A stretch of DNA of 34,902 nucleotides, taken from IMG/VR virus record IMGVR_UViG_3300017742_000046, positions 1 to 34,902 of that record; one strand, 5' to 3'. Positions 1-34,902 of this stretch are shown piece by piece (position 1 is the stretch's first letter; each line of letters opens with the position of its first letter). A program made the position numbers and the translations under genes. A model generated the notes under the pieces. That model saw only the letters and a program-made list of their open reading frames with translations. It did no database searches and was not told the origin of the DNA. This DNA is from a virus.

Positions 1-123
1 AGCTTCCTGCATCTCCTTCGTGCCGATCACAGATGCAATACGGCTGCGCTCTTGGAAGCTGGCGTTGTTAATAAACTCTTGGGCGTTCGGGCTGTTGAAG
101 CCTGGGAACTTAGCCAAGCCAAC
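1..123. repeat. Terminal overlap: bases 1-123 are identical to 34780-34902. The contig closes on itself, giving 34,779 unique bp.
   Basis: The string agcttcctgcatctccttcgtgccgatcac...cttagccaagccaac is present at both ends in the same orientation. One minus-strand reading frame runs through the junction without a stop. Confidence 0.95.
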
Positions 124-1245
124 CAAATCCTGATCTCCGCCTGCACCAGCTTGGCGAATGGCGTCATCTAGTGCGCTGACCACGTTCGAACCAATGCGAC
201 CATCTCTGACATATGCGTCAGTTGTTTTGATTAGAGAGTTAATAAAGCTGATGTTCGACTTGTGACTTGTCGGGTTCATCGCTGTAACAGCAATCAGATC
301 TGCACCTTTGCCAGCTTTCTTTGTCCCAATACCTTTGCCTTGAACGGCCCAGATTAGACCATTCTCTTGGCTTGATGGCAGCAGCGGGAAGCCTGGGCCA
401 CCCATCATCACCTCTGGAACATCAATCAGCGAACTGTCGATGCCCTTGTAGAAACCACCAGCGCGCGTCAGGTCAGCCACTGTTGGGATAATGCGAGCAT
501 CTTCCAAATCTCTAGGCGTAATGCGCGGTGCATCTACTGGGGTTTGATCGGGAATGTCTGGTAAACCACCGACAACATCAGCGCCAACACCCTGCGCCAT
601 AGATGGATCACCACGGCCACGAATAAAGTCAAAATCAAGTCCACCAAGCGCTCTGGTGTTACCAATCACGTCTGCCATGAATGGGCTGTCGTAGATCTCA
701 CGGGCTAGAATACTTGCGCCCTCTGCTACTGGCTTGGTCAACGGAAACGCCTCTGCAACGCCAAGGCCAGCCTCTAGGCCACCCAAGCCCATCTTGAGGT
801 AATCACCTTCCCGATAGCCCTCGACAGCTGTTCCGCCACCCTCTTCGATGCCATACACAGCGCCCAGTGGCGTTAGATCCGCCAAGCCAAGACCGTCTAG
901 GATGTTCTGAGATGTCGGGCTGGTGTCGCCCATGATGTCGCGTGCGTATCGACCAGCGACATATGGATCTAGGCCCATGCGATTGATTAAAGCGTCCTGA
1001 ACAAGCTGCGTATCCATCTCGCGCATGGTGTAGTCTGGCGCTTGGAGCGTGCCGTAAGTCGCTTCAGCCGCGGCAATGTCTTGCGGTGTTAGACGTGAAG
1101 GTGTTCTGGGAATACGACTAGAAGGCTGCAAGTTGCCGCGATACATAGACACTTCTTCTGGCGTAAAACCAGCAGCGAGAAAGTCATCATCGACCAGACC
1201 TGCTATTGATCGGTCGTATTCTGCTAGTTCTGCCAGTCTGTCCAT
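1..1245 (-). CDS. N-terminal 415 codons of an 850-aa ORF of unknown function in the packaging operon. It continues across the contig junction into 34779..33472.
   Basis: ATG at 1245-1243 overlaps the terS stop (TAATG). My hand translation (MDRLAELAEYDRSIAGLVDDDFLAAGFTPEEVSMYRGNLQPSS...) stays open to base 1. No competing ORF of 60 aa or more is listed for 1-1075. The frame matches the ORF 33472..34896 through the 123-bp overlap. Confidence 0.85.
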   Translation of the reverse strand, partial: MDRLAELAEYDRSIAGLVDDDFLAAGFTPEEVSMYRGNLQPSSRIPRTPSRLTPQDIAAAEATYGTLQAPDYTMREMDTQLVQDALINRMGLDPYVAGRYARDIMGDTSPTSQNILDGLGLADLTPLGAVYGIEEGGGTAVEGYREGDYLKMGLGGLEAGLGVAEAFPLTKPVAEGASILAREIYDSPFMADVIGNTRALGGLDFDFIRGRGDPSMAQGVGADVVGGLPDIPDQTPVDAPRITPRDLEDARIIPTVADLTRAGGFYKGIDSSLIDVPEVMMGGPGFPLLPSSQENGLIWAVQGKGIGTKKAGKGADLIAVTAMNPTSHKSNISFINSLIKTTDAYVRDGRIGSNVVSALDDAIRQAGAGGDQDLVGLAKFPGFNSPNAQEFINNASFQERSRIASVIGTKEMQEA

Positions 1246-1643
1246 TACGCGTCCTTTGGATCTACAATCACCCGCTCGATTTTCTGCACGATTGGACCGC
1301 CTTCTGGCCCTGAGTGTTCATTCTTCACCGTGTCATGCCAATCGGCGCGAAACCTGTTCTTCATGTTGAAGATGTAGCTGGTTGCGTTGAAACCGTCGAT
1401 CCCACCAAACGTAGCCATGCGGCCATTTCGTTCCCACCATGCTTGCGAATAGCGTATTGCTTCCTTTACGGCCTCCGAAAAATCTTTTCTTTCGTTCTGC
1501 CATCTGTCGAAAGTGTCGTATGCAATATCAAGTTCCAGAGCCATTTCGCACTTGCTCATTCCTTGCTTTCCGCACTCAATCACCGTCTCGCACATCTTGG
1601 GTTCGTATTTAGTGGGTCTTCCCTGTTTCTTCTTAGCTGCCAT
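1245..1643 (-). CDS. terS: Terminase small subunit (putative)
   Basis: 132 aa. The N-terminal segment KKKQGRPTKYEPKMCETVIECGKQGMSKCEMALELDIAYDTFDRWQ looks like an HTH. The C-terminal NATSYIFNMKNRFRADW is typical of small-terminase families. A GAGGTG RBS lies 6 nt before ATG 1643. It is the first gene of the packaging block. Confidence 0.7.
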   Translation of the reverse strand: MAAKKKQGRPTKYEPKMCETVIECGKQGMSKCEMALELDIAYDTFDRWQNERKDFSEAVKEAIRYSQAWWERNGRMATFGGIDGFNATSYIFNMKNRFRADWHDTVKNEHSGPEGGPIVQKIERVIVDPKDA

Positions 1644-1712
1644 TTTACACCTCATATCTCAGCCAAGCGGACTGGACGCATGGCTGCAATATAAAGCAAA
1701 GATGGTGTTATA

Positions 1713-2000: not shown

Positions 2001-2320
2001 TCGGCTTGATCCTGATACTTCCCGTTCCCGTATGATGCGGGTTCTTCTATGCGGTGAATTTCGAAAAGGGGCGATAAAATATCGTTCACAGCGGCGTCAA
2101 ACGTGCCTAGACTATCCTGCCTTCTCCACAATTTTTTAACCACAGCCTCTAACTCTTTTACGCGGGCTTCGTGGATGTCCGCGCGGACGTATTGCTGCCC
2201 TGAAAGGTCGTCATTTACATAACTATCCTTGTGCGCAACTCGTAACTCATCGATCCAGCTTGGTGCGTTGTTTACAGCTTCGCAAGCGTCCACCCAAATC
2301 CGTTCTGGTGCTTCGCTCAT
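1997..2320 (-). CDS. Hypothetical protein
   Basis: 107-aa ORF in the operon frame chain, with 4-nt overlaps at both ends. No motif recognised. Confidence 0.6.
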   Translation of the reverse strand: MSEAPERIWVDACEAVNNAPSWIDELRVAHKDSYVNDDLSGQQYVRADIHEARVKELEAVVKKLWRRQDSLGTFDAAVNDILSPLFEIHRIEEPASYGNGKYQDQAD

Positions 2321-2697
2321 GATGCCTCAACCTCATCGTAATAAGCGTCAAGCAGGGCACTCACGGCCAGTTCGGCTACGGTTACATTCATTCGCTCCGC
2401 TTCAGCAGTGACCCAATCTCGAAACTCTACGTTCTTCTGCGAATGCGGGAAGAATGCGCGCCGTATAGAACCATAGAAAAAATCTGAGCGAAGCTGGCCT
2501 CGCGCATCGCGCACGGTCTGCTGAGAAATCAGGCTCTCGTCTAATGCACGTCGCTTGATCCTTGAGACCTGTGAACAGCTAAGGCCCACCATTTGACCGA
2601 TCTCAGTCAGCGTCAGTCGCGGTGCCGTCTGAATATAGAGCGGCTTGATCACTCTCCAGCGCTCTTTGAACGCCTCTCTGCTTTCCATTTTACCCAT
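2317..2697 (-). CDS. HTH DNA-binding protein (sigma-70 region 4 / LuxR-like helix-turn-helix), possible transcription regulator
   Basis: 126 aa. The segment LTLTEIGQMVGLSCSQVSRIKRRAL is a typical HTH. It is located two genes upstream of terS. Confidence 0.55.
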   Translation of the reverse strand: MGKMESREAFKERWRVIKPLYIQTAPRLTLTEIGQMVGLSCSQVSRIKRRALDESLISQQTVRDARGQLRSDFFYGSIRRAFFPHSQKNVEFRDWVTAEAERMNVTVAELAVSALLDAYYDEVEAS

Positions 2698-9377: not shown

Positions 9378-9835
9378 TGCCCACAAAGATCATCAGAGAA
9401 TTGCAGCATGTTGATGCGCTTGCCAATATGCTGCGTGATCGAAAGTTGCCAATTACTGTAACATGGACGCAAGGCGCTCCGAGATCTACCGCGCAAAACA
9501 GGCTGGCACAAAGATGGTTCACAGACATTGCAGTTCAGCTTGGAGATCAAACGCATGAAGATGTGCGTGCAGAATGTAAGTTGCGCTTCGGCGTTCCAAT
9601 TTTGCGCGCACAGAATGAAGCTTTTAAGCTGTCCTATGATCGAGTTCTGAAGCACTTGCCTTATGAACCAAAACTTGAAGCGATAAAAGCATTTGATCTT
9701 CCAGTAACTCGACTAATGACCGTCAAACAAATGACGGAATTTATGGAACAGATGCAGCTTCATTGGTCAGTGCAAGGCGTTAGACTGACTGACCCAGAGG
9801 CTCTTAAATATGAACAGGAGTTTTGCGATGGGTAA
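9377..9835 (+). CDS. ninB: NinB/Orf-like recombination mediator
   Basis: 152 aa. PRSTAQNRLAQRWFTDIA and MTVKQMTEFMEQMQLHWSVQGVRLTDPE align with lambda NinB (RSLDQNRKLWACLGDVS and MRVGEFAELLELIQAFGTERGVKWSDE), recalled from memory. Confidence 0.65.
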   Translation: MPTKIIRELQHVDALANMLRDRKLPITVTWTQGAPRSTAQNRLAQRWFTDIAVQLGDQTHEDVRAECKLRFGVPILRAQNEAFKLSYDRVLKHLPYEPKLEAIKAFDLPVTRLMTVKQMTEFMEQMQLHWSVQGVRLTDPEALKYEQEFCDG

Positions 9836-10292
9836 AAAAATAGCACCAAAAGGTTCAAGTGAAGAGTTCCTTAGACGCAATGTTGGCCTTCAATCTGATG
9901 ACTGTTTGATTTGGCCATATAGAACAAACAAAGGTTATGGATTAGCCGTAATCAATGGGAAACAAAAAACAGCATCTAGATGGATGTGCATATTGGCTCA
10001 TGGTGAACCAGTAGGTCAGAAAAAACATGCTGCACACCAATGCGGAAACCCAGCTTGCGTAAATCCAAATCATCTAGAATGGAAAACTCACAAACAAAAC
10101 ATGCACGACAAAAAACGTCATGGAACAGACAACATCGGAGAACGAAATGGCAAAACGAACCTAACAGAAGATGACGTTAGATATATCAGATCAGCGCCGC
10201 CAAACTTAGCGCCGCTCATGCAAAAGTATAATATGTCAAAAAACGGAATATCGAAAATTAGAAGTCGCCTAAGATGGGCGCATGTGGAGTAA
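9828..10292 (+). CDS. HNH homing-type endonuclease (HNH_3-like)
   Basis: CLIWPYRTNKGYGLAVINGKQKTASRWMCILAHGEP...AAHQCGNPACVNPNHLEWKTHKQNMHD. ATG 9828 follows AGGAG. Local GC is about 40% against about 52% in the flanks. Confidence 0.85.
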   Translation: MGKKIAPKGSSEEFLRRNVGLQSDDCLIWPYRTNKGYGLAVINGKQKTASRWMCILAHGEPVGQKKHAAHQCGNPACVNPNHLEWKTHKQNMHDKKRHGTDNIGERNGKTNLTEDDVRYIRSAPPNLAPLMQKYNMSKNGISKIRSRLRWAHVE

Positions 10293-12590: not shown

Positions 12591-12760
12591 TACTTCTTTC
12601 CCTTCCTTGCTGGTTTCTTCGCGGTCTTTGCAGCGGCTTTGAAAGCCTTTGCGGTGGGCGCGCCCTTTGCTCCAGGCTTGCGCTTCTTTTCGCCAGATCC
12701 AGCCGCAATGCGTTCCCGCTTGGATTGGATGTTAGCATATAATCCAGGTTTCCTCGCCAT
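12590..12760 (-). CDS. 56-aa lysine-rich protein
   Basis: Hand translation: MARKPGLYANIQSKRERIAAGSGEKKRKPGAKGAPTAKAFKAAAKTAKKPARKGKK. Its ATG overlaps the endolysin stop (TAATG). The hydrophobic + ORF 12522..12803 is its antisense shadow. Confidence 0.5.
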   Translation of the reverse strand: MARKPGLYANIQSKRERIAAGSGEKKRKPGAKGAPTAKAFKAAAKTAKKPARKGKK

Positions 12761-13425
12761 TATCTGTCTCCTTCAGCCCATTTTCGTAGGCGCTCTTTCA
12801 TAATCCAGATCGACATCAGGACACCAAGGCCAGCGAAGCCGAGAACGATATACTGAGCCGTGCTATCAAGCGCACTGAGTGCCGTCACGGCTGATCCGGT
12901 GGCAGAGGCAGCGGCGACCACAGATGCCTGCACAGTCTTGCTCTGTGCGGCGTTTGTGCGAGCGGGTGCGGGCGCTTTCCTGAAACCTGTCGAGAGGAAC
13001 AGACCGACCTCAGCTTCTCGTCGGTTGACCAAGCCTTTCACGACCTTGCCGCCAGCCTTGTTCCACCTGCGCATGGATTTCGGCACACGATCTTTGTCGC
13101 CCGCATTGAAGTGCCGCAGAGCGGATGACTTGCGGAATGCCCTCGGGCCGATGTTGTAAGCTAGCGAGGTAAACGCGCCAAGCTGGTTCTCGTTGATGTC
13201 AGCAATGATTGCTGGCTTGATCTCCGCGAGAAACTTTTCAATGACTTGCTCAAGATACCAATCGGCCTCGGCTTGGGTGATTGTGGTGTCAGGACCAACT
13301 TCGATGAAGCCAGCGCGTGATGTCAAACCGTAGCCGACAGTCCAGACGCCCGCCGGGCATTTATACGCCTTCAATTTGCAGCCCTCCCAGCGCTTAATGA
13401 GATCGATTGAGGCTTGGTTCAGCAT
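12760..13425 (-). CDS. GH24 (lambda/T4-type) lysozyme endolysin with a C-terminal TM segment
   Basis: 221 aa from ATG 13425. LIKRWEGCKLKAYKCPAGVWTVGYG...NQLGAFTSLAYNIG...KGLVNRREAEVGLF. C-terminal hydrophobic helix AQYIVLGFAGLGVLMSIWIM. Confidence 0.9.
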   Translation of the reverse strand: MLNQASIDLIKRWEGCKLKAYKCPAGVWTVGYGLTSRAGFIEVGPDTTITQAEADWYLEQVIEKFLAEIKPAIIADINENQLGAFTSLAYNIGPRAFRKSSALRHFNAGDKDRVPKSMRRWNKAGGKVVKGLVNRREAEVGLFLSTGFRKAPAPARTNAAQSKTVQASVVAAASATGSAVTALSALDSTAQYIVLGFAGLGVLMSIWIMKERLRKWAEGDR

Positions 13426-13426
13426 A

Positions 13427-13705
13427 TCATCCTCCAGAGCGGAATTTAAAAAAGATAAGACCGACAGCAGCGGTGGCCACGATCCAGAATAACCGCTCCG
13501 CAAAGCGCAGCGCTTGCCCATTGCTTCCGACGCGGTTTTCCACAAGCGACAAGCGTCGTTCTTGAGCGGACTGCTCATTATCAAGCGTGTCCATCCGCTT
13601 GAACAACGTAATCATTCGCTCTTCCATGCGGGCCAGCGCAACTATAGCTTCGGACATATTGTCTAGCTTGCTTTCAATACGCTCTAGGCGGTGATCGTCG
13701 TTCAT
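13427..13705 (-). CDS. Coiled-coil protein with a C-terminal TM helix (lysis-cassette associated; holin/antiholin-like role unproven)
   Basis: 92 aa. LERIESKLDNMSEAIVALARMEERMITLFKRMDTLDNEQ is followed by LFWIVATAAVGLIFFKF. Its stop lies 1 nt from the endolysin ATG. Confidence 0.5.
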   Translation of the reverse strand: MNDDHRLERIESKLDNMSEAIVALARMEERMITLFKRMDTLDNEQSAQERRLSLVENRVGSNGQALRFAERLFWIVATAAVGLIFFKFRSGG

Positions 13706-17839: not shown

Positions 17840-20053
17840 TCATTGCTGGCCACCAACCGTCATGCGACCCGTGAATGGAATACGCGGCCCAAGTTCTTCT
17901 TCCTGAGAAAGAACAGCACCAGTTCCAGCGCCGACAGCAGGTGCCGTGATTTGACGTGGCGCAGCCCTCTGAGCCGTTGATTGCGCTGCTCTCATGGCAC
18001 CGTAAGGCTCTCGAATAATTTGACCAACGACGTTATTAATTATAGCTTTCCCAGGCCCACTTGCGGCAAGCATAGCTGCAAGTTTCTGAATTAACCCCAT
18101 AGCTTGATTTGAACTGTTAGAAGCATTAACGGCAGTGTTGGTTGCGCGTGCAGCCACATTTGAGAACTGCGTAATAAGATCTCTTTCCTCTTTGGAGAAA
18201 AGATTATTCACAACGCCAAGGTTCTCAGTTTTCAAATTCTCCCAAGCCTTTTTGAACTTAACGCCAGAAACAACTTGCTCACCTTCGCGGAAAACGCCCT
18301 CTGCCTCTTTTGACAAGCGAATAAACGCCTCTTGGCGAAGTGCATTCCACTCAGGTGTTGGCAAGTTTTTCTTCAAGTTCAAGAGATCTCTGGCAAGGTT
18401 TGTTTTCTTAGCCAGACCAGATGCAGTTGAGGTGAAGATTGCGTTTGCGGCGCTTTCTGGGGCAACTTTAAGTCTGCGCGCGGTTCCAGTTCCAACTTCA
18501 TCTGTCAGAATACCAAGCATTCCACCCTTGCTGTCCCACTTAGATTTATACTGACCCCAGTTTTTGACAGCTTGCTGCCACACATCAATGGCCGCTTGGT
18601 CCCCAATCACCAATTGATTGTCGATCGCATCAGACAATCTCTGGTCAAACATTCTAAGAACATCAGTTGCAGCAGCGCCTTCAGTGTCTGGCTCACCTTT
18701 TCTGAGGTTGCTAACCCGCGTCCGCCACGACTGCAAAGACTTGATGTCGCCACCATTCAGCATGATGTCATCAAGATCCGTCAGAAGCGCATCCATCTTG
18801 GGCGCGGTGGCTGGAGTGAAGCCCTCACGGTAACTTACCCTTGCAGCTTCAGCAAAGTCCAAAGCCTCATCTGGCTTCAAAACAGCAGCGCCCGAAGCCC
18901 TTGCTTGCTTGTAAAGATCAGACGCACGCGCGCGATCGCCCTCACGGGCCGCTACAAGCGCCTCTTGAGCCAGCCTGCCACCTTCCCCCTTGGAGATAGG
19001 GGCAGCGTCTGGAGCAAGGCGCTCAGTAAGCGCACCGATGTTTTCACGAAGAGCCTCTTGCTGACCTTGCTGGAAAGTCTTCATTTGCTGTTCAGCAGAT
19101 CGTCCCATAACGCCACTAGCCATAGCATCTTCAGCAAGCTGTTGACCCTTGCTTCCAGTGACCTGACCAGCAGTCATAGGAACCTCTACAGGAAGCCCTG
19201 TGGACATAGCGGATACACCAGCAGCCTCTGGCTCAACACCACGTCGAACTTGCTTTTGAATTTCAGCAGCAACATTGGCGGAAACTTCATCTGGGTTTAA
19301 TCCAGCATCTTGAGCAATCTTGGCTGGACCTGGAAGAAGACGCCCGTCAGGGCCAAGAACGCTTTCTGGACCACTGCGCCGCGCTATGTTGACCAAAGAC
19401 CCGACAAGATTGAACAGTTTTTCTCCAGCAACACCACCAGCAGCACCAAGCGGAACATCTGTTACTTGGAATGGAACGTCACTAAGCTGTGAACTTGCGG
19501 CTTCGACCAATCCCGCCTCAGTCGCCCCTACAGCCGCAGCGCCCTTGACACCAGTTGTAGTTACGCCAAGAGCCTTTAGCCCACGACCAATAGGAGTTGC
19601 AGCAGCAATAGCACCAGAAACCTGCAATCCCTCAGTTAATCCAAGACCAGGCTCATTAGGGTAAACGCGAGTAAATTGACCCGTTTTTTCACCGTCCCGA
19701 TATAAAGGAAGCACCGCAATTAAACGGCCAGCTTCATCTTCACTAAATTCCGCTTCTGGTTCAATCCTTGCTATTCCGCTGCGCAGACGATCGGGACTGC
19801 GTGTTGTCGCAAGGAGCGCGGTCATCTCAGCCGCTTTTGCTGGAGGCAAACCTAAATTGGCACTTGAAATATCAGCCACTGAAGGATCAGCGTCAGATCC
19901 AGTCACAGAAGTCCAGAAACGTGAAAGAACGCTTTCTTTTTTTTCCGTCATTCCACTGGTCATTTTCTTAAAAGCAGCAAGTGCTTGCTCTTGCGTTTCC
20001 GCTGTGACCTTGTAGCTGACGCCATTTTCATCTGTGAGTTTAAACTCAGCCAT
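17840..20053 (-). CDS. Large internal virion / ejection protein (positional analogue of P22 gp16)
   Basis: 737 aa, Ala/Gly-rich. It is the last of three genes of increasing size that follow the order of P22 gp7-gp20-gp16. Confidence 0.5.
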   Translation of the reverse strand: MAEFKLTDENGVSYKVTAETQEQALAAFKKMTSGMTEKKESVLSRFWTSVTGSDADPSVADISSANLGLPPAKAAEMTALLATTRSPDRLRSGIARIEPEAEFSEDEAGRLIAVLPLYRDGEKTGQFTRVYPNEPGLGLTEGLQVSGAIAAATPIGRGLKALGVTTTGVKGAAAVGATEAGLVEAASSQLSDVPFQVTDVPLGAAGGVAGEKLFNLVGSLVNIARRSGPESVLGPDGRLLPGPAKIAQDAGLNPDEVSANVAAEIQKQVRRGVEPEAAGVSAMSTGLPVEVPMTAGQVTGSKGQQLAEDAMASGVMGRSAEQQMKTFQQGQQEALRENIGALTERLAPDAAPISKGEGGRLAQEALVAAREGDRARASDLYKQARASGAAVLKPDEALDFAEAARVSYREGFTPATAPKMDALLTDLDDIMLNGGDIKSLQSWRTRVSNLRKGEPDTEGAAATDVLRMFDQRLSDAIDNQLVIGDQAAIDVWQQAVKNWGQYKSKWDSKGGMLGILTDEVGTGTARRLKVAPESAANAIFTSTASGLAKKTNLARDLLNLKKNLPTPEWNALRQEAFIRLSKEAEGVFREGEQVVSGVKFKKAWENLKTENLGVVNNLFSKEERDLITQFSNVAARATNTAVNASNSSNQAMGLIQKLAAMLAASGPGKAIINNVVGQIIREPYGAMRAAQSTAQRAAPRQITAPAVGAGTGAVLSQEEELGPRIPFTGRMTVGGQQ

Positions 20054-20056
20054 CCA

Positions 20057-21562
20057 TCAGCCCCCGATTTTCTCAATGATAACACCATCAATCACGACAG
20101 CACTGCCAGATGTATCACCACCGCCAATAATTGACCTGATCTCCGAAAGAGGATCTGACAACTCAAGTGAAGCATTCCTACCTGCGCTTGGGCTGAGAAT
20201 AAGCCCAGCTTCCTCAAGAGCCGCCCGATCTTCTTTTGGCGTCAAAGCATAATCAGCAACCTTTGATGCAATTACACCCAGTGCAATGTCATGCTCATTC
20301 ATTTTTCGAATGGTGTTGATGATACGCTGGTTGCCGCCTGGCTGGTTAATCAGGCCTGGCAGAGATCTCTTGAACAAAGCCAAATCTGCATCAGACATAG
20401 TTCCTGATCCTGGCGCACGTTGCTCTGGAACAAGTCGATTGATTGCGGCTTCAGCAGCTTGAATAAGATCCAAGCCCTCAGTCGCAATGCCAAACCTACC
20501 AAGATAAGACTTCACTGAAGTCCCAGCACCAGTTTGCACTTCTGACAAGATTTGCTCTAGGTCATCAATTTGCGCGCTTGTTCTGCGTGCCTTAATGCCC
20601 AAATCAATTTCGTTTGAAACTCTTGTAGCTTCTTTTTTGGAAAACTCTTTTGCAAAAGTCCCCTCTGCATCACCTAAAACATTTGTAATTGTGTTTGTTG
20701 CAGTTTTTTTAGAAGCGGTTTCAAAATGTTCTTGCGTAATTTTATCAGCGTTTAAGTCAGCGACCAATTTACCCATTGTAGATAGTGGGTCTTCACTGAG
20801 ACCAGCTTTTGCAGTCATTGCCTCTTCATATTGGCCATCACCACCCTCATCACGAGGAACGATGCCAGCTGCGCGAAGCTGTGCATCAGTGGTGCGGAAC
20901 GCTTCCGTTTTCTTAACATCACCGCCACCGAAAGCACTTTTATGCCACTTTTCAAATTCATCAAAAGGCATTATTGTAAGCAATGGAATGGAAACTTCTG
21001 CTCCCAAGGACAGAGGATCTTCTTCAAGTTTTATAAGCTGTGCCTGATACGCTGCCGCACCTGCATCATCACCAGAAGCAGTTGCCGCATCCAATCGTTC
21101 TTGGAGAATATTTCTTGCTACATCCGTGTTGCCTCGACCAATAGCAAAGCCAAGCTGCTGACCAAATTGCATTTCGTTGCCAAGGCGCTCTTCACTGAAG
21201 CTGTTTGCAAGTGATTGGAAGCGCTCAGAAACTTGGGGGAACTCAACCATAGCGCGGCGCAAGTCAGAAGCCGTGGCCGTTCCAGCCTCTTGCTTATCCA
21301 AGTATTCAAGCAATGCTTGCTGGCCGCGCGCTGCTTGCTCACGCTGTGCTTGAGCCTGTGCTGCTGCCGCCTGCTGTTGCCGAATGGCCCTAGCACGATC
21401 TTCCCTTGCCAGCGCAAATTTTTCTTGGGCGCGCGCCTCTTGGCTTTGAGCCAGTTCACGATCCTGACGCTGACCCAGAATACCTTCGCCAAACTTTAAG
21501 CCCTGCATGTAACCCTCAATCGGGTTCAGGACGTTCATAGAATAATTGATAGGACTAACCAT
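20057..21562 (-). CDS. Internal virion / ejection protein (positional analogue of P22 gp20)
   Basis: 501 aa with a Gln/Ala-rich coiled-coil N-terminus. TAATG overlap with the upstream gene. Confidence 0.5.
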   Translation of the reverse strand: MVSPINYSMNVLNPIEGYMQGLKFGEGILGQRQDRELAQSQEARAQEKFALAREDRARAIRQQQAAAAQAQAQREQAARGQQALLEYLDKQEAGTATASDLRRAMVEFPQVSERFQSLANSFSEERLGNEMQFGQQLGFAIGRGNTDVARNILQERLDAATASGDDAGAAAYQAQLIKLEEDPLSLGAEVSIPLLTIMPFDEFEKWHKSAFGGGDVKKTEAFRTTDAQLRAAGIVPRDEGGDGQYEEAMTAKAGLSEDPLSTMGKLVADLNADKITQEHFETASKKTATNTITNVLGDAEGTFAKEFSKKEATRVSNEIDLGIKARRTSAQIDDLEQILSEVQTGAGTSVKSYLGRFGIATEGLDLIQAAEAAINRLVPEQRAPGSGTMSDADLALFKRSLPGLINQPGGNQRIINTIRKMNEHDIALGVIASKVADYALTPKEDRAALEEAGLILSPSAGRNASLELSDPLSEIRSIIGGGDTSGSAVVIDGVIIEKIGG

Positions 21563-22272
21563 TAGAAAATCTCCCCTTGCGGCCTCATTCGCGGTCTAAG
21601 AGACGTTGTTGGAGCAAGTGAACTTTCGCCACCAAACCCACTAAACGGATTTTCGAAAATACCAGCGGAAACGCCGCCAGCATATTGGCCAATGCTGCCC
21701 ATTACGTTGCCAAATGCCTGACCTGACGCCAAAGCTGAACCAGCCGCAGCTGCGCCCTGCTGACCGTATAGGTTCGCAATGTTTTGACCTGTCTGCATAC
21801 CAGCCGTGCCAACGCCAGCAGCAGCATTCTGGCCCATAGTGGTCAAGCCACCAAGCCGTGAATACTGCTGATTGATAAGGCTTGAAAGAACCTGTGGTCG
21901 GAACTGAGCCAAAGCTGCCTGAGTGTTGCCGCCACGAAGACCACCAGTTGCCGATGCGCTTTGCAAAATAGCCTCTTCGCCCTGCTGCGTTAGGGTTTGA
22001 AACTCTTGTCCGCCTTCAATTGCAGCAATGGCTTTGCGCTGCGCTTTTGCACCTGACATGCCGCCAAGAGCCATTTGTTGAATAAGGCTTACATCACCAG
22101 CTTCCACATATGGCGAAAGAAGTTCTTGAACGCGATCAAATTGCCTGCTTTGCTCTTCAACGCCTTTATCAGCTGCCTGCGTTTGTGCGGCAGCGGCGCG
22201 CTTAGACGCTTTGTTCTGAACCACGCCGCCGATAATGGATGATCCAATTACTGCTGTGGCCATCATTGACAT
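21562..22272 (-). CDS. Internal virion / ejection protein (positional analogue of P22 gp7)
   Basis: 236 aa. Hydrophobic N-terminus MSMMATAVIGSSIIGGVV, then Gly/Ala/Gln-rich. GGAGGG RBS 8 nt upstream. Confidence 0.5.
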   Translation of the reverse strand: MSMMATAVIGSSIIGGVVQNKASKRAAAAQTQAADKGVEEQSRQFDRVQELLSPYVEAGDVSLIQQMALGGMSGAKAQRKAIAAIEGGQEFQTLTQQGEEAILQSASATGGLRGGNTQAALAQFRPQVLSSLINQQYSRLGGLTTMGQNAAAGVGTAGMQTGQNIANLYGQQGAAAAGSALASGQAFGNVMGSIGQYAGGVSAGIFENPFSGFGGESSLAPTTSLRPRMRPQGEIF

Positions 22273-22832
22273 GAGACAATCCCTCCAAGGTGTTTGCGAA
22301 CAGCATCGCTTATTGCATCAGCGTTCTTCTTTTCTTCTTGCTTGATCTTCCAAGCATCCGTCTTGTCCACGAACATATCTTCAATTTTTTCTGGATCTGT
22401 TTCGTCAGTAGCCAAAACATTCTGCCAGACAACATCTTCGATTGCGTATCCAAGTTTCCTGCCAGGTTCGCTGACAAAGATATATGGACCTTCAATGACG
22501 CGGACCTCATCGTTGATGACAACTGCGGCTTTGCCTTTAAGCAGAATGTTCATCGTCTGCTCTCTGTGCTTGTGGCTCAGAACCAAAGACCCAGCAGGAA
22601 CAAACAACTCACGGATACATACGCCAGGTCCAAAGTAATGATGGACAGGGCATTCAGCTTGTTCTTGAGACATAAGATATTGCTCGACAAGATCTAAGTC
22701 GATTGGAGCAAACTCTTCATTTCTCTCAATTATGTGCAATGGGCCATCCTTTTCGGACACTGCCTGCTGGCTGGCCATTGTCTCAGCACCTGCATTATCA
22801 CAGAAATCAGTCTCTACGGCAAGATCCTTCAT
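22263..22832 (-). CDS. Cupin-like beta-barrel protein
   Basis: 189 aa. CPVHHYFGPGVCIRELFVPAGSLVLSHKHREQTMNILLKGKAAVVINDE contains a G-x5-H-x-H cupin-type motif. ATGA overlap with the SLT gene. Confidence 0.5.
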   Translation of the reverse strand: MKDLAVETDFCDNAGAETMASQQAVSEKDGPLHIIERNEEFAPIDLDLVEQYLMSQEQAECPVHHYFGPGVCIRELFVPAGSLVLSHKHREQTMNILLKGKAAVVINDEVRVIEGPYIFVSEPGRKLGYAIEDVVWQNVLATDETDPEKIEDMFVDKTDAWKIKQEEKKNADAISDAVRKHLGGIVSCQ

Positions 22833-23368
22833 TTTAACTGAAACCTTTGCGCAATTTCGTATGGATTATACAGATCTGTCGGCTGAACTTGCTCCCTCTG
22901 AGTGGCGAAGAAATCAGCCAAAGCATCTCCTGGCTCGTAACCACGCGCAAACTCCTCTTCCTCTTGTGGGGTAGCCTGTGGGCGTCCCTCAAGAACTCTT
23001 GTGTCAGAGTATCCGCCCATAATTTTGTTTACATAGTTTTGCGTCTCTTCAAACGGAGGAATGCCGCCATATTTGCTGACGTTGCCTGGGCCAGCGTTGT
23101 AAGCGGCCAGTGCCAAAGACGTATCTCCAAACCGATCAATCTGCTGACGCAAGTATCTTGCGCCACCCCGAAGGTTTTGGACAGGATCTTCTGGATCAAC
23201 ACCCAAATCAGCCGCAGTCCCTGGCATAAGTTGTGCCAAGCCATAAGCACCAGCGGAAGAAGTTGCATTTGGATTAAAGGCGCTTTCAGCAGTAACTAAG
23301 CGAATAAACAGATCAGGATCGACACCTTCCTCCAAAGCAATGCGATATGCTGTGTCGCGGTAATACAT
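22829..23368 (-). CDS. Lytic transglycosylase (SLT domain), probably virion-associated
   Basis: 179 aa. AESAFNPNATSSAGAYGLAQLMPGTAADLG...AAYNAGPGNV. Confidence 0.85.
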   Translation of the reverse strand: MYYRDTAYRIALEEGVDPDLFIRLVTAESAFNPNATSSAGAYGLAQLMPGTAADLGVDPEDPVQNLRGGARYLRQQIDRFGDTSLALAAYNAGPGNVSKYGGIPPFEETQNYVNKIMGGYSDTRVLEGRPQATPQEEEEFARGYEPGDALADFFATQREQVQPTDLYNPYEIAQRFQLK

Positions 23369-32248: not shown

Positions 32249-33475
32249 TCACCGTGCGATAGGCATCACAGTCGCGATTGCTTTGGCCTGCGGCTTCTTC
32301 TGCGTGTTGGCCCTTCGCGCACCCTCACAGGCATATCTGATTGCGTCAATAACGTGGTTATCTTTGTCTTCCAACACGGGCAAAATCGAGCCTGTGTCGC
32401 GGTCTGTCTTGTAGCTATACAGCGTCAGTTCGTCGATCGTGTGCTTGCAGCGCGGGTGAACGATGATGTCAAACGACTTGAGCCACTCAACACCTTCTTC
32501 AACAGACTTTGGCCCCTTGATCGCTGGCTGTATCTTAGGGAAGCCGTTCTTGCGCATATGGCTGATGGTCTCTGGGCGTGCGCTGTCGGCCACCATGGGC
32601 CATTTCTCAGCCTCTGGGATGGACATGACCAGCGAAGGCGTGTCCACAATCTCACAGCCCACCTGATAAGCCTCATAATCAATATACAGCTTGCGACCAA
32701 TGATGTGGCTGCGAACAGCAACGGTCGGGTCTGTAGCAAAGCCCCAGTCAGCGCCAAGGCGGTGGATTGCGTCTGGCGGTGCCTCAAAGTCTTCGATCGT
32801 CCAGTTCTTGAACACGCGCGTCTCGCTGTTGCGGACATAATCGCCCTTCCAGACGTGCATGTATTTGTCAGGGTCGCGCTTCTTGTCGTATTCCATTTCG
32901 TCCTTGAGAACGTCAGGGAACCACGGGTTGTCTTCGAAGTTGACCTCAACAACAGTGCTTTTCTCTGGGGCGTTTGGTCCGCGCAACAATCCCTCGATCG
33001 GATCGGTGTCGTAACGTGGGTTCCAAGTGAACCACAGCTGCGAACCTGGCTTACGAATGGTCGGGCGCAGAATGTCCAATGAGAACTGGCTCAGGCTCTG
33101 CGCTTCCTCAACCCAAGCGATGTCATAACCTTCAAGCGACTTGATGCTGTCAGCTGTGTGGTTCTGCAAACCTTGGAAGATGATGATGCCGCCATGAACG
33201 GATCTGATCTCGAACTCTTTGATCTGGAACATATGCGAGACGCCAAGTTCTTCGATCTTATTTTCAAGCAGCTTCTTAACCGACTGCGCCAGAGACTTCT
33301 GAACCTCACGAACGCACACAGCGTCAACGCGCTCCATGATGCTGCGCTCAATCAGCATCTCTGCGAACATGTGAGACTTGCCAGAACCACGGCCACCATG
33401 AGCGCCAAGGTATCTGGCGTCTGGATTACTGAGAACAGGAAGCGCCCAGCGCGGTGTTTTTATCTGGAGGTTCAC
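32249..33475 (-). CDS. terL: Terminase large subunit (Terminase_3 / PBSX-like)
   Basis: 408 aa. Walker A GAHGGRGSGKSH, IAWVEEAQ (Walker B-like) and a C-terminal nuclease region DNHVIDAIRYA. The GTG start at 33475 overlaps the upstream TGA (GTGA). Confidence 0.93.
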   Translation of the reverse strand: MNLQIKTPRWALPVLSNPDARYLGAHGGRGSGKSHMFAEMLIERSIMERVDAVCVREVQKSLAQSVKKLLENKIEELGVSHMFQIKEFEIRSVHGGIIIFQGLQNHTADSIKSLEGYDIAWVEEAQSLSQFSLDILRPTIRKPGSQLWFTWNPRYDTDPIEGLLRGPNAPEKSTVVEVNFEDNPWFPDVLKDEMEYDKKRDPDKYMHVWKGDYVRNSETRVFKNWTIEDFEAPPDAIHRLGADWGFATDPTVAVRSHIIGRKLYIDYEAYQVGCEIVDTPSLVMSIPEAEKWPMVADSARPETISHMRKNGFPKIQPAIKGPKSVEEGVEWLKSFDIIVHPRCKHTIDELTLYSYKTDRDTGSILPVLEDKDNHVIDAIRYACEGARRANTQKKPQAKAIATVMPIAR

Positions 33476-34902
33476 TGACCGATATTACGCATCGCCATTA
33501 TTTGCTCGATTTGGTCGGCTGGGATGCCTTGGTTCCTGAGTTGTTCAGGCGTAAGTCCCAATATACCTCTTGCACCTTCTCTTGCGCGGCTGGAGAGACG
33601 AAGTCCGTCACCAGTTCCAGCCTGCCCTGTATCTCCGCGTCCGACACTGGTCGGTTGAGGTTGAACAGTTTGGTCAGGGACGCGTCCAGCAGATCCTTCT
33701 GCCGTTGCGACAATTCCTTTAGTTTCGGCCCGATGGCTTGGCGCACCTGCCCCGCGAATGCCTGCAACCGCTGCTCTTCTGTCTGCATCTGATCCACTCC
33801 ATCTCATTACTATCACGGGCGGCATGCCCTGACTTTCATCCCAGCCATCAGAGCGCCATGCTTCGAGCAAATCCTCATAAGCAAGCTCGCCATGATCGGC
33901 CACATACATTTCTTTGTCGAACGGAACCCGCCCAACCTCTTCAAAACCAAACTCACCGTAGTATTGCGGCAAGAAGCCATCTGGAAACTTATCAGAAGGC
34001 ACAGCAAAAGCATCAAGTATATTTGCACCCTCGTCAAGCGCTTTTGCTATTACGCTTGGTGCGGCTGTGCCTTTTGATCCTGGAGCGTTGCTAACAACAC
34101 CCACTAAAGCCTTGTCGCCTTCCTGCATATCGACGCCAGCCCATGAGTAATCTGGCTTTGCATCAAGAGCAAAGAAGACATCGTCATCACCAAGCTGATA
34201 TGCCACCAGATCGCCAGAGCGCGCACCTGCCTTAACTTCCTGTGGTGAGTAGTTTGTCAGTGCTGGTTTGTATTTGTTGTCATTGATTGCATCAACAAAC
34301 TGCTGCGGAGATGCACCACCAGCTTTGACAGATGTGGTCGTGGGCTTCCAGTTGTCCGTCAGCGAGTTAACAAGCAGGCGCGTATCGATCGCAGGCATAC
34401 CTGTTCTGGCAGCTGCCTCCATTGTCATGATGCGCTCTAAGTTTTCAACCTGACGCCCAGTGACCTCTTGGATCGGTAGTGACATGTCGAAAGCGCGGCG
34501 TCCGCCTTTATTAAAGCCCTCACCAAATGCGTTGATGTTCTTTTCTCCCCAGAAGTCGGGGAACATTTCAAACGTCGATATGTTCTGGTCGAGCGCGCCA
34601 AACACACGGCCACGAATGCCATAGCGATAGCTTGGGTGGATAGGCAGACCCTCTGCGGCCAGATCCACTGGAGGCAAGCTGAAGTCAGGCTCAATGAATA
34701 GCAATGTGTCGCGCGGGTTTGCACCAGCATACTTGGGATCAACGGTCTCTTGCAGGACGCGGTTGACGTTGGGTACGCCAGCTTCCTGCATCTCCTTCGT
34801 GCCGATCACAGATGCAATACGGCTGCGCTCTTGGAAGCTGGCGTTGTTAATAAACTCTTGGGCGTTCGGGCTGTTGAAGCCTGGGAACTTAGCCAAGCCA
34901 AC
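33472..34902 (-). CDS. C-terminal 476 codons seen in this window (435 unique) of the 850-aa packaging-operon ORF; includes a GNAT-like segment
   Basis: The frame is open from the window edge. The M at 34896 in the track is an internal TTG. It continues the frame of 1245..1 through the 123-bp overlap. Its stop overlaps the terL start. Confidence 0.85.
   Translation of the reverse strand, partial: VGLAKFPGFNSPNAQEFINNASFQERSRIASVIGTKEMQEAGVPNVNRVLQETVDPKYAGANPRDTLLFIEPDFSLPPVDLAAEGLPIHPSYRYGIRGRVFGALDQNISTFEMFPDFWGEKNINAFGEGFNKGGRRAFDMSLPIQEVTGRQVENLERIMTMEAAARTGMPAIDTRLLVNSLTDNWKPTTTSVKAGGASPQQFVDAINDNKYKPALTNYSPQEVKAGARSGDLVAYQLGDDDVFFALDAKPDYSWAGVDMQEGDKALVGVVSNAPGSKGTAAPSVIAKALDEGANILDAFAVPSDKFPDGFLPQYYGEFGFEEVGRVPFDKEMYVADHGELAYEDLLEAWRSDGWDESQGMPPVIVMRWSGSDADRRAAVAGIRGAGAPSHRAETKGIVATAEGSAGRVPDQTVQPQPTSVGRGDTGQAGTGDGLRLSSRAREGARGILGLTPEQLRNQGIPADQIEQIMAMRNIGQ
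34780..34902. repeat. Second copy of the terminal overlap (identical to 1-123)
   Basis: Identical 123-bp string in direct orientation. Confidence 0.95.

What the first reader, a model, noticed from the sequence alone, without database searches (positions are those of the whole stretch)
33472..34902. 850-aa ORF wedged between terS and terL, translationally coupled to both, reading through the contig junction
On the minus strand the terS stop overlaps an ATG at 1245 (TAATG). That frame stays open for 415 codons to base 1. Because bases 1-123 equal 34780-34902, it continues in the same frame to the TGA at 33472-33474, which overlaps the GTG start of terL (GTGA). The reconstituted product is 850 aa.

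In P22-like packaging modules (gene order 3-2-1-8-5) terS and terL are adjacent, so a large gene coupled into that slot is unexpected. I recognise no family for the first ~640 aa, which contain Gly/Ala-rich stretches such as GLGGLEAGLGVAEA and PGFPLLPSSQENGLIWAVQGKG. The last ~110 aa are Gly/Arg/Pro-rich and look disordered. GC content is like the rest of the genome, so this does not look like a recent insertion. Position and coupling suggest a packaging- or capsid-associated, possibly injected, protein.
Basis: partly seen in the sequence, partly recalled or inferred. Interest (0 to 1): 0.78.

Follow-up and report, generated by a model that had tools for sequence, protein, structure and literature searches.

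The report
Swappable effector gene between terminase subunits
The 850-residue gene between the small and large terminase genes of this P22-like phage is real, and it is a modular "carrier plus cargo" protein of the polyvalent type, probably packed into the capsid and delivered into the host, whose cargo pairs a widespread uncharacterised domain with a likely acetyltransferase.

Summary
Bases 1-123 equal 34780-34902. The minus-strand frame 1245..1 + 34779..33472 encodes 850 aa, joined to terS by TAATG and to terL by GTGA. An independent contig is colinear across the junction, so it is not a misassembly.

The protein (X) is a mosaic:
- aa 1-232: a helical, partly disordered N-terminal module.
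- aa 240-555: "domain A", confidently folded, with no Pfam, PHROG, NCBIfam or PDB relative.
- aa 556-755: a GNAT-like domain, supported only weakly.
- aa 756-809: a disordered linker.
- aa 810-850: a conserved tail.

The slot is not an oddity in this clade. Of 49 IMG/VR relatives with both terminase genes, 39 carry a 1.4-3.0 kb insert. Occupants carry ART-PolyVal, GNAT, LPD23 or PBECR5 domains, all hallmarks of polyvalent proteins. The A-GNAT cassette recurs in at least 730 protein clusters, including 2,000-6,000-aa polyvalent proteins and the internal-virion-protein block of a T7-like phage.

Best reading: a compact polyvalent, capsid-delivered effector. Packaging and enzymatic activity are inferred, not shown. 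It is a new variant of a known kind, of moderate interest.

The parts
1..1245 (-). First part of gene X (codons 1-415). The ATG at 1245-1243 shares one base with the terS stop (TAATG).
33472..34779 (-). Second part of gene X (codons 416-850 plus the TGA at 33474-33472). The TGA overlaps the terL GTG (GTGA).
   Evidence: Colinearity across the junction with the independent contig L010:
34780..34902 (.). Exact duplicate of bases 1-123, a terminal overlap marking circular closure of the contig. It is not extra coding sequence.
550..1245 (-). N-terminal 'carrier' module (aa 1-232). It is helical with low model confidence, and aa 162-230 are disordered. The most conserved piece is aa 1-36 (window 1138-1245): MDRLAELAEY..D.DFLAAGFTPEE...YR. 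It was found only in proteins in the terS-terL slot, joined to different cargos.
1..528 (-). Domain A, first part (aa 240-415). It contains the conserved residues D258, G282-G283, W299, H328, N331 and R400.
34360..34779 (-). Domain A, second part (aa 416-555). It contains the conserved residues H463, Y466 and G472.
33760..34359 (-). GNAT-like domain (aa 556-755). It has the loop G649-S-K-G652-T-A654 and the motif Y689..G693-F694.
   Evidence: Sequence tests were negative:
33598..33759 (-). Linker rich in Gly, Ala, Thr, Arg and Pro, predicted disordered (aa 756-809).
33475..33597 (-). Conserved C-terminal helical tail (aa 810-850; N831 and G833 invariant). In other proteins it often follows the A-GNAT cassette about 55 residues downstream.
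1245..1655 (-). Small terminase subunit (136 aa), upstream neighbour.
   Evidence: phrog_309, E 1.8e-25
32249..33475 (-). Large terminase subunit (408 aa, GTG start), downstream neighbour. No evident Shine-Dalgarno sequence precedes it.

Best explanation
X is a compact polyvalent-type effector encoded in a hypervariable cargo slot between terS and terL of a metagenomic clade of P22-like podophages. It is translated late, in series with the terminase subunits (TAATG and GTGA overlaps).

Its parts, and what I think each does:
- **N-terminal module (aa 1-232).** I infer that it is the carrier that brings the protein into the procapsid or to the portal region.
- **Cargo (aa 240-850).** This is a conserved cassette of domain A, a GNAT-like domain, a linker and a tail. 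I infer that it leaves the virion with the DNA and acylates a host or defence target early in infection. The GNAT-like domain would be the catalytic unit. Domain A would be its obligate partner, either selecting the substrate or providing a second activity.

**Shown**
- The ORF and its coupling at both ends.
- The module boundaries.
- Cargo swapping on a constant carrier in a constant slot.
- The same cargo on other carriers, in other virion and packaging contexts, and inside giant polyvalent proteins.

**Inferred**
- Encapsidation.
- Ejection into the host.
- Acyltransferase activity.
- The target.
For: **Modularity**
- blastp breakpoints fall at aa ~228-240, inside a linker predicted to be disordered.
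- 35 proteins share only aa 1-~230. About 38 share only aa ~233-850.

**Same slot, same carrier, different cargo**
- L001 has terS, then the N module plus ART-PolyVal, then terL and a P22 portal.
- L004 has the N module plus a GNAT that Pfam recognises.
- Pfam on 62 partial homologues finds GNAT families, ART-PolyVal, DUF3990, SLT and Ntox14.

**Survey of close terL relatives**
- At least 596 IMG/VR contigs carry a close terL relative.
- Of the 49 loci holding both terminase genes, 39 have a 1.4-3.0 kb insert and 8 have terS abutting terL.
- The 28 occupants scanned carry ART-PolyVal (6), GNAT families (Acetyltransf_7 in 4, Acetyltransf_CG in 2), LPD23 (E 3.7e-23) and PBECR5 (E 6e-14). All are domains of the polyvalent-protein network described in PMC5512222.

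**Same cargo on other carriers and in other contexts**
- In the T7-like L007 the cassette sits in the block of gp14-like (phrog_418) and gp16-like (phrog_6651) internal virion proteins.
- In L003 it is fused behind an SLT domain, between terL and the portal.
- In L006 it lies before the terL of a third phage type.
- In phage C72C1 a domain-A protein lies upstream of the portal gene.

**Spread of the cassette**
- The domain A profile finds 730 clusters at 50% identity.
- 68 of the best 146 are longer than 1,500 aa, up to 6,086 aa.
- 121 of 146 have the GNAT-like domain directly behind A.
- P0168 reads LPD22, ART-PolyVal, A, G. P0151 reads Zeta_toxin, A, G.

**Conserved polar residues suggest activity**
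- Domain A: D258, H328, N331, R400 and H463 are each at least 95% conserved.
- G domain: the N646/G649/G652 loop and Y689-x3-G-F are conserved.

**Precedent**
- The 2,811-aa polyvalent protein gp47 of podophage phi24B was detected in virions by mass spectrometry (bioRxiv 10.64898/2026.04.10.717836).
- Iyer et al. describe a phage polyvalent GNAT family that neighbours ART (PMC5512222).
Against: - There is no direct evidence that X is in virions or is ejected.
- X carries no recognised head-targeting domain. It has no MuF, portal or MPTase hit.
- The N motif and the tail are not shared with any other ORF of the window, including the P22-type ejection proteins.
- The phage already has a P22-like ejection-protein block.
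- The GNAT assignment is weak.
  - Foldseek gives E ~0.03 and TM 0.42-0.46.
  - There is no Pfam GNAT hit in 16 diverse members.
  - There is no PDB profile hit.
  - hhalign to a genuine GNAT gives only P = 0.0033.
- Domain A has no known relative, so no function can be transferred to it.
- One relative (L014) may keep the N module without cargo. That would mean the N module has a role of its own.
Confidence: 0.6

Rival explanations
1. X is a late cytoplasmic enzyme that is not packaged. It would act inside the producing cell. For example, it might modify phage DNA as it is packaged, as the GNAT-fold enzyme Mom of phage Mu does. It might instead acylate terminase, portal or host proteins. Its place between terS and terL would reflect a link to packaging rather than to delivery.
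For: - The gene is embedded in the terminase operon and coupled to both subunits.
- In several phage types the cassette lies next to terL.
- No known capsid-targeting domain is present.
Against: - The same slot holds ART-PolyVal, PBECR5 and LPD23 proteins. These are typical of delivered effectors.
- In a T7-like phage the cassette sits among internal virion proteins, far from the terminase genes.
- The cassette is also embedded in 2,000-6,000-aa polyvalent proteins.
- Eight of 49 relatives package DNA without any insert, so X is not needed for packaging.
Confidence: 0.2
2. X is mainly a structural ejection or conduit protein. The helical, glycine-rich N module would help build the channel across the cell envelope, as P22 gp7, gp20 and gp16 or T7 gp14-16 do. 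The C-terminal domains would be accessory or inactive.
For: - The N module is helical, Gly/Ala-rich and partly disordered.
- One relative may keep the N module alone.
- Related cassettes are fused to SLT-bearing and gp16-like proteins.
Against: - No segment is hydrophobic enough to span a membrane. The highest 19-residue Kyte-Doolittle mean is 1.24.
- X is strongly acidic, with a net charge of -40.
- The window already has a P22-type ejection block.
- Eight of 49 relatives lack any insert.
- Polar residues in domains A and G are conserved at 95% or more across hundreds of clusters, which argues for catalysis or ligand binding.
Confidence: 0.1
3. The 850-aa ORF is an artefact. A false circular junction would have fused two separate ORFs.
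For: The ORF exists only after the two ends of the window are joined.
Against: - Dozens of full-length homologues of 835-906 aa align end to end without a break.
- P0001 lies on an independent contig with terS, X and terL contiguous.
- The DNA alignment is colinear across the junction.
Confidence: 0.01
4. X is a diverged MuF / SPP1 gp7-type head morphogenesis protein with a toxin-like C-terminus.
For: - The logic is the same: an N-terminal virion-association module with a variable C-terminal effector (PMC5512222).
- One BFVD 'Phage head morphogenesis domain' protein appears among the fold matches, but at E 0.85.
Against: - There is no Pfam or PHROG MuF hit at permissive thresholds.
- The gene lies before terL, not after the portal.
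- The fold match is not significant.
Confidence: 0.03

Closest known systems
Polyvalent proteins of phages and conjugative elements (Iyer, Burroughs, Anand, de Souza, Aravind 2017; PMC5512222)
   Same: - X is a multi-domain polypeptide encoded beside terminase and portal genes.
- Its sister proteins in the same slot carry ART-PolyVal, GNAT, LPD23 and PBECR5 domains.
- The A-GNAT cassette occurs inside giant proteins that also hold LPD22, ART-PolyVal or Zeta_toxin.
- The paper describes a phage GNAT family that neighbours ART.
   Different: - X itself matches no Pfam polyvalent domain.
- It has no processing metallopeptidase.
- It is small (850 aa).
- Domain A and the N module match none of the Pfam LPD models.
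- The translationally coupled terS-terL position is not reported in what I read of that paper.
MuF-domain effector fusions (phage Mu gpF, SPP1 gp7, MuF polymorphic toxins)
   Same: A constant N-terminal module linked to the head or packaging region carries interchangeable C-terminal effector domains.
   Different: - There is no sequence or fold similarity to MuF.
- The gene lies upstream of terL rather than downstream of the portal.
Encapsidated, injected host-modifying or anti-restriction proteins (T4 Alt, P1 DarA/DarB, N4 virion RNA polymerase, phi24B gp47)
   Same: All are proposed to be carried in the head and released with the DNA to act before phage genes are expressed. phi24B gp47 is a polyvalent protein found in podovirus virions.
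   Different: - No homology was detected.
- T4 Alt uses a cleavable capsid-targeting sequence and a prohead protease, which P22-like phages lack (my own knowledge).
- Packaging of X is untested.
GNAT acetyltransferases used in phage-host conflict (AcrVA5, which acetylates Cas12a; Mu Mom; TacT- and AtaT-type toxins). These examples come from my own knowledge and were not tested here.
   Same: The predicted beta-alpha topology and two motif-like segments resemble the acyl-CoA binding core.
   Different: - No sequence-profile match to any GNAT family was found.
- The domain is always preceded by the 315-aa domain A, which those enzymes lack.
T7-like internal virion protein gp16 (with its SLT domain) and its relatives
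   Same: The same A-GNAT cassette is fused to a protein with weak gp16-like similarity in L007. It is also fused behind an SLT domain in P0073.
   Different: - X has no gp16-like or SLT part.
- The window's transglycosylase is a separate 179-aa protein at 22829-23368.

Membership tests
Polyvalent proteins (Iyer et al. 2017) | Several unrelated globular domains in one polypeptide of a phage or mobile element | tested here: met
   The N module, domain A, the GNAT-like domain and the tail are separated by disordered linkers. blastp breakpoints fall at the linkers.
Polyvalent proteins (Iyer et al. 2017) | Contains, or is linked by domain architecture to, domains of the polyvalent network (ART, LPDs, PBECR, MuF, MPTase and others) | tested here: met
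   - X has no direct Pfam hit.
- Its N module is fused to ART-PolyVal and GNAT domains in sister proteins.
- Its A-G cassette lies next to ART-PolyVal and LPD22 in P0168, and in the same protein as Zeta_toxin in P0151.
- Other occupants of the slot carry LPD23 and PBECR5.
Polyvalent proteins (Iyer et al. 2017) | For the phage type: encoded among virion and packaging genes of a phage with a terminase-portal system | tested here: met
   The gene order is terS, X, terL, portal, scaffold, coat. Relatives show the same or similar contexts.
Polyvalent proteins (Iyer et al. 2017) | Packaged in the capsid and delivered to the host with the DNA | not testable with these tools
   This needs virion proteomics or an injection assay. 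The only support is precedent (phi24B gp47).
Polyvalent proteins (Iyer et al. 2017) | A zincin-like metallopeptidase for processing. This is frequent in the family but not obligatory. | tested here: not met
   No peptidase family was found in X.
GNAT superfamily (aa 556-755) | The GNAT fold, with topology b1-a1-a2-b2-b3-b4-a3-b5-a4-b6-b7 | tested here: inconclusive
   - The order of secondary-structure elements in the AF2 model fits.
- Foldseek's best PDB matches are GNATs (5yge, 9cr5). They score only E ~0.03, probability 0.92-0.96 and target TM 0.42-0.46.
GNAT superfamily (aa 556-755) | The acyl-CoA pyrophosphate loop Q/R-x-x-G-x-G/A after strand b4, and the motif B tyrosine (Y..GF) | tested here: inconclusive
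   - X has G649-S-K-G652-T-A654. The first position is Gly, not Gln or Arg.
- X also has Y689-x3-G693-F694.
- G652 is 94% conserved and Y689 95% conserved over 116 cluster representatives.
- Both motifs align in register with a Pfam-positive GNAT, but only at P = 0.0033.
GNAT superfamily (aa 556-755) | A significant sequence-profile match to a GNAT family or a solved GNAT structure | tested here: not met
   None of 16 diverse members hits a Pfam GNAT family at E <= 0.1. No PDB chain among the profile hits at E <= 1 is a GNAT.
MuF / SPP1 gp7 head morphogenesis family | A match to PF04233 or the MuF fold, with the gene directly after the portal gene | tested here: not met
   There is no Pfam or PHROG hit. 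The BFVD 'head morphogenesis' match has E 0.85. The gene lies upstream of terL.
P22 ejection proteins gp7, gp20 and gp16 | Homology to the ejection-protein families, with the gene downstream of the tail genes | tested here: not met
   - X hits no ejection-protein PHROG.
- The window's own block is at 17840-22272, with phrog_598 at 21562-22272.
- The two share no motif.

The most novel reading that the evidence does not exclude
The terS-terL junction of this abundant metagenomic P22-like clade would be a dedicated effector-exchange locus, kept in place by translational coupling. A previously undescribed carrier module would load interchangeable weapons into the capsid. Domain A would be a new enzyme or recognition fold that works as an obligate pair with an atypical GNAT. 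Together they would carry out a host-takeover or anti-defence reaction not yet known, and one that is widespread in phages (at least 730 protein clusters, including giant polyvalent proteins).
Probability: 0.3. Interest if true: 0.75.

Novelty: new variant of a known kind. Interest (0 to 1): 0.55.

Why it matters
**A testable example of a poorly tested class.** Polyvalent proteins are predicted to be the first proteins a phage fires into a cell, but few have been tested. X offers a small, 850-aa, two-domain version in a simple 35-kb podophage. It comes with natural controls: relatives with no insert, and relatives with ART, PBECR or LPD cargo on the same carrier.

**A defined new domain.** Domain A folds confidently and is strongly conserved. 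It has no Pfam, PHROG, NCBIfam or PDB relative, yet it occurs in hundreds of phage protein clusters, nearly always followed by the same GNAT-like domain. Working out its activity could reveal a new host-takeover or anti-defence chemistry.

**A practical use.** The slot could serve as a marker for finding delivered effectors in metagenomes.

Tried and rejected
**X and the window**
- tblastn of X against GenBank phages found no match. The A-G region of P0151 found only one weak hit, phage C72C1, and nothing in plasmids.
- A full-length profile against PDB sequences found nothing.
- No ORF elsewhere in the window shares the N motif or the tail, and the window has no tRNA.

**Domain A**
- Pfam, PHROGs and NCBIfam gave nothing credible.
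- The PDB profile search gave only a ParB helix-turn-helix resemblance at E 0.14, which I reject as not significant and inconsistent with the predicted secondary structure.
- Foldseek of the high-confidence domain A model against the PDB gave a best E of 0.64 at probability 0.02. I found no solved relative.

**G domain**
- The PDB profile and Pfam searches were negative.

**Motif comparisons that found no relationship**
- The N-terminal motif and the C-terminal tail are not repeats of one motif (hhalign probability 0.3%).
- The two N-module classes are not homologous. They share only a 17-residue junction motif.
- X's tail is not related to the other common C-terminal module of slot occupants.

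**Searches that yielded little**
- A word-indexed protein search with the domain A alignment returned only 4 hits and was uninformative.
- The GTDB genome scan found two loci. Both appear to be phage DNA within metagenome-assembled genomes (one a fragment in a 5.2-Mb scaffold), and they give no host information.
- Literature searches found no report of a polyvalent protein between terS and terL in P22-like phages.
Full report
**1. The observation**

The window ends in an exact 123-bp direct repeat (1-123 = 34780-34902), so the unit length is 34,779 bp. On the minus strand, 1245..1 joined to 34779..33472 is a single ORF of 850 codons.

Its ATG shares one base with the stop of the upstream gene (TAATG), and an AAGGA lies about 9 nt upstream. 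Its TGA overlaps the GTG of the downstream gene (GTGA). No obvious Shine-Dalgarno sequence precedes that GTG.

- terS, 136 aa, phrog_309, E 1.8e-25.
- terL, 408 aa, Terminase_3 plus Terminase_3C.
- A P22-type portal, scaffold and coat.

The rest of the genome fits a P22-like podophage. It has a head-closure protein, an ejection protein (phrog_598), a transglycosylase, tailspike-like proteins, a lysozyme, a YqaJ-type recombinase domain, SSB and an HNH endonuclease.

The junction is genuine:
- About 40 homologues of 835-906 aa align end to end.
- P0001 (91% identical, 850 aa) lies uninterrupted on an independent contig between a terS and a terL.
- blastn gives one colinear 3,258-bp alignment across the junction.

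**2. Anatomy**

blastp against 120 homologues shows two independently distributed parts:
- Residues 1-~230 occur alone in front of other C-termini in 35 proteins.
- Residues ~233-850 occur behind other N-termini in about 38 proteins.

An AlphaFold2 model built on 46 sequences gives:

| Residues | Prediction |
|---|---|
| 1-160 | Helical, low confidence |
| 162-230 | Disordered |
| 240-755 | Confident, pLDDT 75-93 |
| 760-810 | Disordered |
| 810-848 | Short helices |

Within the N module the first 36 residues (MDRLAELAEY..D.DFLAAGFTPEE...YR) are by far the most conserved.

X is acidic, with a net charge of -40. It has no membrane-spanning segment.

**3. The confident core is a two-domain cassette**

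*Domain A (aa 240-555)*
- Modelled alone with 23 diverse sequences, it reaches pLDDT 91.5 and pTM 0.87.
- Foldseek finds nothing in the PDB. The best match has E 0.64, probability 0.02 and TM below 0.2.
- It has no Pfam, PHROG or NCBIfam family.
- The only PDB sequence-profile resemblance is a non-significant one to a ParB helix-turn-helix (E 0.14).
- A profile search of 1.84 billion cluster representatives finds 730 clusters at E <= 1e-3 and 133 at E <= 1e-30.
- Of the best 146, 68 are longer than 1,500 aa, and the longest is 6,086 aa.
- Across 132 representatives the most conserved positions are G282-G283 (100%), D258 (98%), G472 (98%), N331 (97%), H328 (96%), and W299, F397, R400 and H463 (95% each). 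This pattern suggests an active or ligand-binding site.

*The GNAT-like domain (aa 556-755)*
- It follows domain A directly in 121 of those 146 proteins. A 40-residue 'tail' motif often comes about 55 residues later.
- The order of its secondary-structure elements matches the GNAT fold.
- The only PDB fold matches of the full model with high Foldseek probability are GNATs (5yge, 9cr5), at E ~0.03, probability 0.92-0.96 and TM 0.42-0.46.
- The segments SKGTA and YYGEFGF align in register with the RSKGVGT and FYKRFGF motifs of a Pfam-positive GNAT from a sister protein, at hhalign P = 0.0033.
- G652 and Y689 are 94-95% conserved.
- The sequence-profile tests fail, however. None of 16 diverse members hits a Pfam GNAT family, and no PDB GNAT is found.
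- I therefore call it GNAT-like and put that at roughly 0.75, not proven.

**4. Context and shuffling**

*The same N module in the same slot carries other cargo.*
- ART-PolyVal in L001.
- A classical GNAT in L004.
- Across 62 partial homologues Pfam finds GNAT families, ART-PolyVal, DUF3990, SLT and Ntox14.

*The same cargo rides on other carriers.*
- A second, unrelated N-terminal class in the same slot of another P22-like subgroup (L008).
- A protein just upstream of the terL of a third phage type (L006).
- A 1,404-aa protein with an SLT domain, between terL and the portal (L003).
- In the T7-like L007, a 1,056-aa protein inside the block of internal virion proteins.
  - That block has a gp14-like protein (phrog_418).
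  - It also has a phrog_6651 internal virion protein, whose profile appears split between the cassette-bearing protein and the next ORF.

*Giant carriers include polyvalent hallmarks.*
- P0168 reads LPD22, ART-PolyVal, A, G.
- P0151 reads Zeta_toxin, A, G.

*The cassette is rare in deposited genomes.*
- Only phage C72C1 in GenBank has a weak domain A homologue, encoded upstream of the portal gene.
- There is none in plasmids.

**5. How unusual is the slot?**

The nearest GenBank relative by portal similarity (MW202867, 70% portal identity) has terS directly followed by terL. This is the classical P22 arrangement.

IMG/VR, however, holds at least 596 contigs with a close terL relative. Among the best 80 loci, 49 contain both terminase genes:

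| Arrangement between terS and terL | Loci |
|---|---|
| Insert of 1.4-3.0 kb | 39 |
| terS abutting or overlapping terL | 8 |
| Short gap (200 or 565 nt) | 2 |

These loci were not dereplicated.

The upstream ORF nearly always overlaps the terL start by 4 nt.

Pfam on 28 occupants finds ART-PolyVal (6), GNAT families (Acetyltransf_7 in 4, Acetyltransf_CG in 2), LPD23 (E 3.7e-23) and PBECR5 (E 6e-14).

The slot is therefore a hypervariable effector locus that is typical of this clade. X is one of its alleles.

**6. Mechanism**

*Shown*
- A coupled late gene.
- A constant carrier with interchangeable cargo.
- Cargo shared with internal-virion-protein contexts and with polyvalent proteins.

*Inferred*
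- The N module loads X into the procapsid or the portal region.
- The flexible linkers allow X to pass through the tail channel.
- The A-G cassette acts early in the host as an acyltransferase on a host or defence target.

Because terL lacks its own ribosome-binding site, terL may depend on translation of X. A nonsense mutation in X would then be polar on an essential gene, which would stabilise the cargo. This too is inference.

Two precedents support the model:
- Iyer et al. predicted that phage polyvalent proteins are encapsidated. They describe a GNAT family adjacent to ART in such proteins (PMC5512222).
- phi24B gp47, a polyvalent protein, was detected in podovirus virions.

*Against*
- There is no direct evidence of packaging.
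- No known targeting domain is present.
- No motif is shared with the phage's own ejection proteins.
- The GNAT evidence is weak.
- One possibly cargo-less N module exists, in an error-prone contig.

**7. Comparison and novelty**

X behaves like a polyvalent protein and passes the architecture and context tests for that class. It matches no single annotated family end to end. It is not MuF and not a P22 ejection protein.

New elements, as far as these tools and the searched literature show:
- The coupled terS-terL effector slot.
- Its carrier modules.
- Domain A, defined as an obligate partner of an atypical GNAT-like domain.

It cannot be excluded that Iyer et al. listed domain A among the LPDs that never became Pfam families.

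**Verdict:** a new variant of a known kind, interest about 0.55.

Noticed in passing
L014 1286-4545 (IMG 3300075516 contig): A close relative has an intein (PF14890) in its terL. Its slot protein seems to be the N module alone (~265 aa), with no cargo. The contig appears to contain frameshifts, so this is unverified.
   Followed up: partly
C-termini of slot occupants, e.g. L016 5850-6001, L042 2050-2203, L045 5850-6001: Many slot proteins end in a second conserved module (..KYGIAGAA..LGVS..DVE.A...P.S.WDQLVVGPQ). They do so whatever their cargo (ART-PolyVal and others) and whichever N-terminal class they have. The module is unrelated to X's tail and its function is unknown.
   Followed up: partly
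L007 6001-12507: In a T7-like contig, profile positions 53-263 of phrog_6651 (internal virion protein) match the N-terminus of the cassette-bearing protein. Positions 861-1135 match the next ORF. The A-GNAT cassette looks as if it was inserted into, and split, a gp16-like gene.
   Followed up: partly
window 17840-20053 and 20057-21562 (minus strand): Two large ORFs (737 and 501 aa) sit where P22 gp16 and gp20 would be, next to the phrog_598 ejection protein. Neither has any PHROG hit.
   Followed up: no
window 9810-10292 (+), 2317-2697 (-), 12760-13584 (-): Three features noticed: an HNH_3 endonuclease in the early region, a small protein resembling Sigma70 region 4 a few genes upstream of terS, and a lysozyme with an N-terminal extension of about 60 residues. 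The window has no tRNA.
   Followed up: no
Junction between the N modules and domain A in relatives (e.g. P0004 aa ~225-245); absent in X around aa 225-235: A 17-residue motif (GR.P.TFDDVE.AM) precedes domain A in both otherwise unrelated N-terminal classes. It is missing from X. It may mark a recombination joint or belong to the cargo.
   Followed up: partly
L011 7908-10906 (5.2-Mb scaffold of an Anaerolineae MAG): An X-like gene (71% identical over aa 214-850) is followed by a truncated terL, with no portal or coat gene. It is either a phage remnant or a chimeric scaffold, and it says nothing about the host.
   Followed up: partly
X aa 322-351 (window ~193-282, minus strand): The segment AMNPTSHKSN...AYVRDGRI of domain A weakly resembles the ParB helix-turn-helix (6s6h, E 0.14). 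The match is not significant and does not fit the predicted strand-helix pattern.
   Followed up: yes
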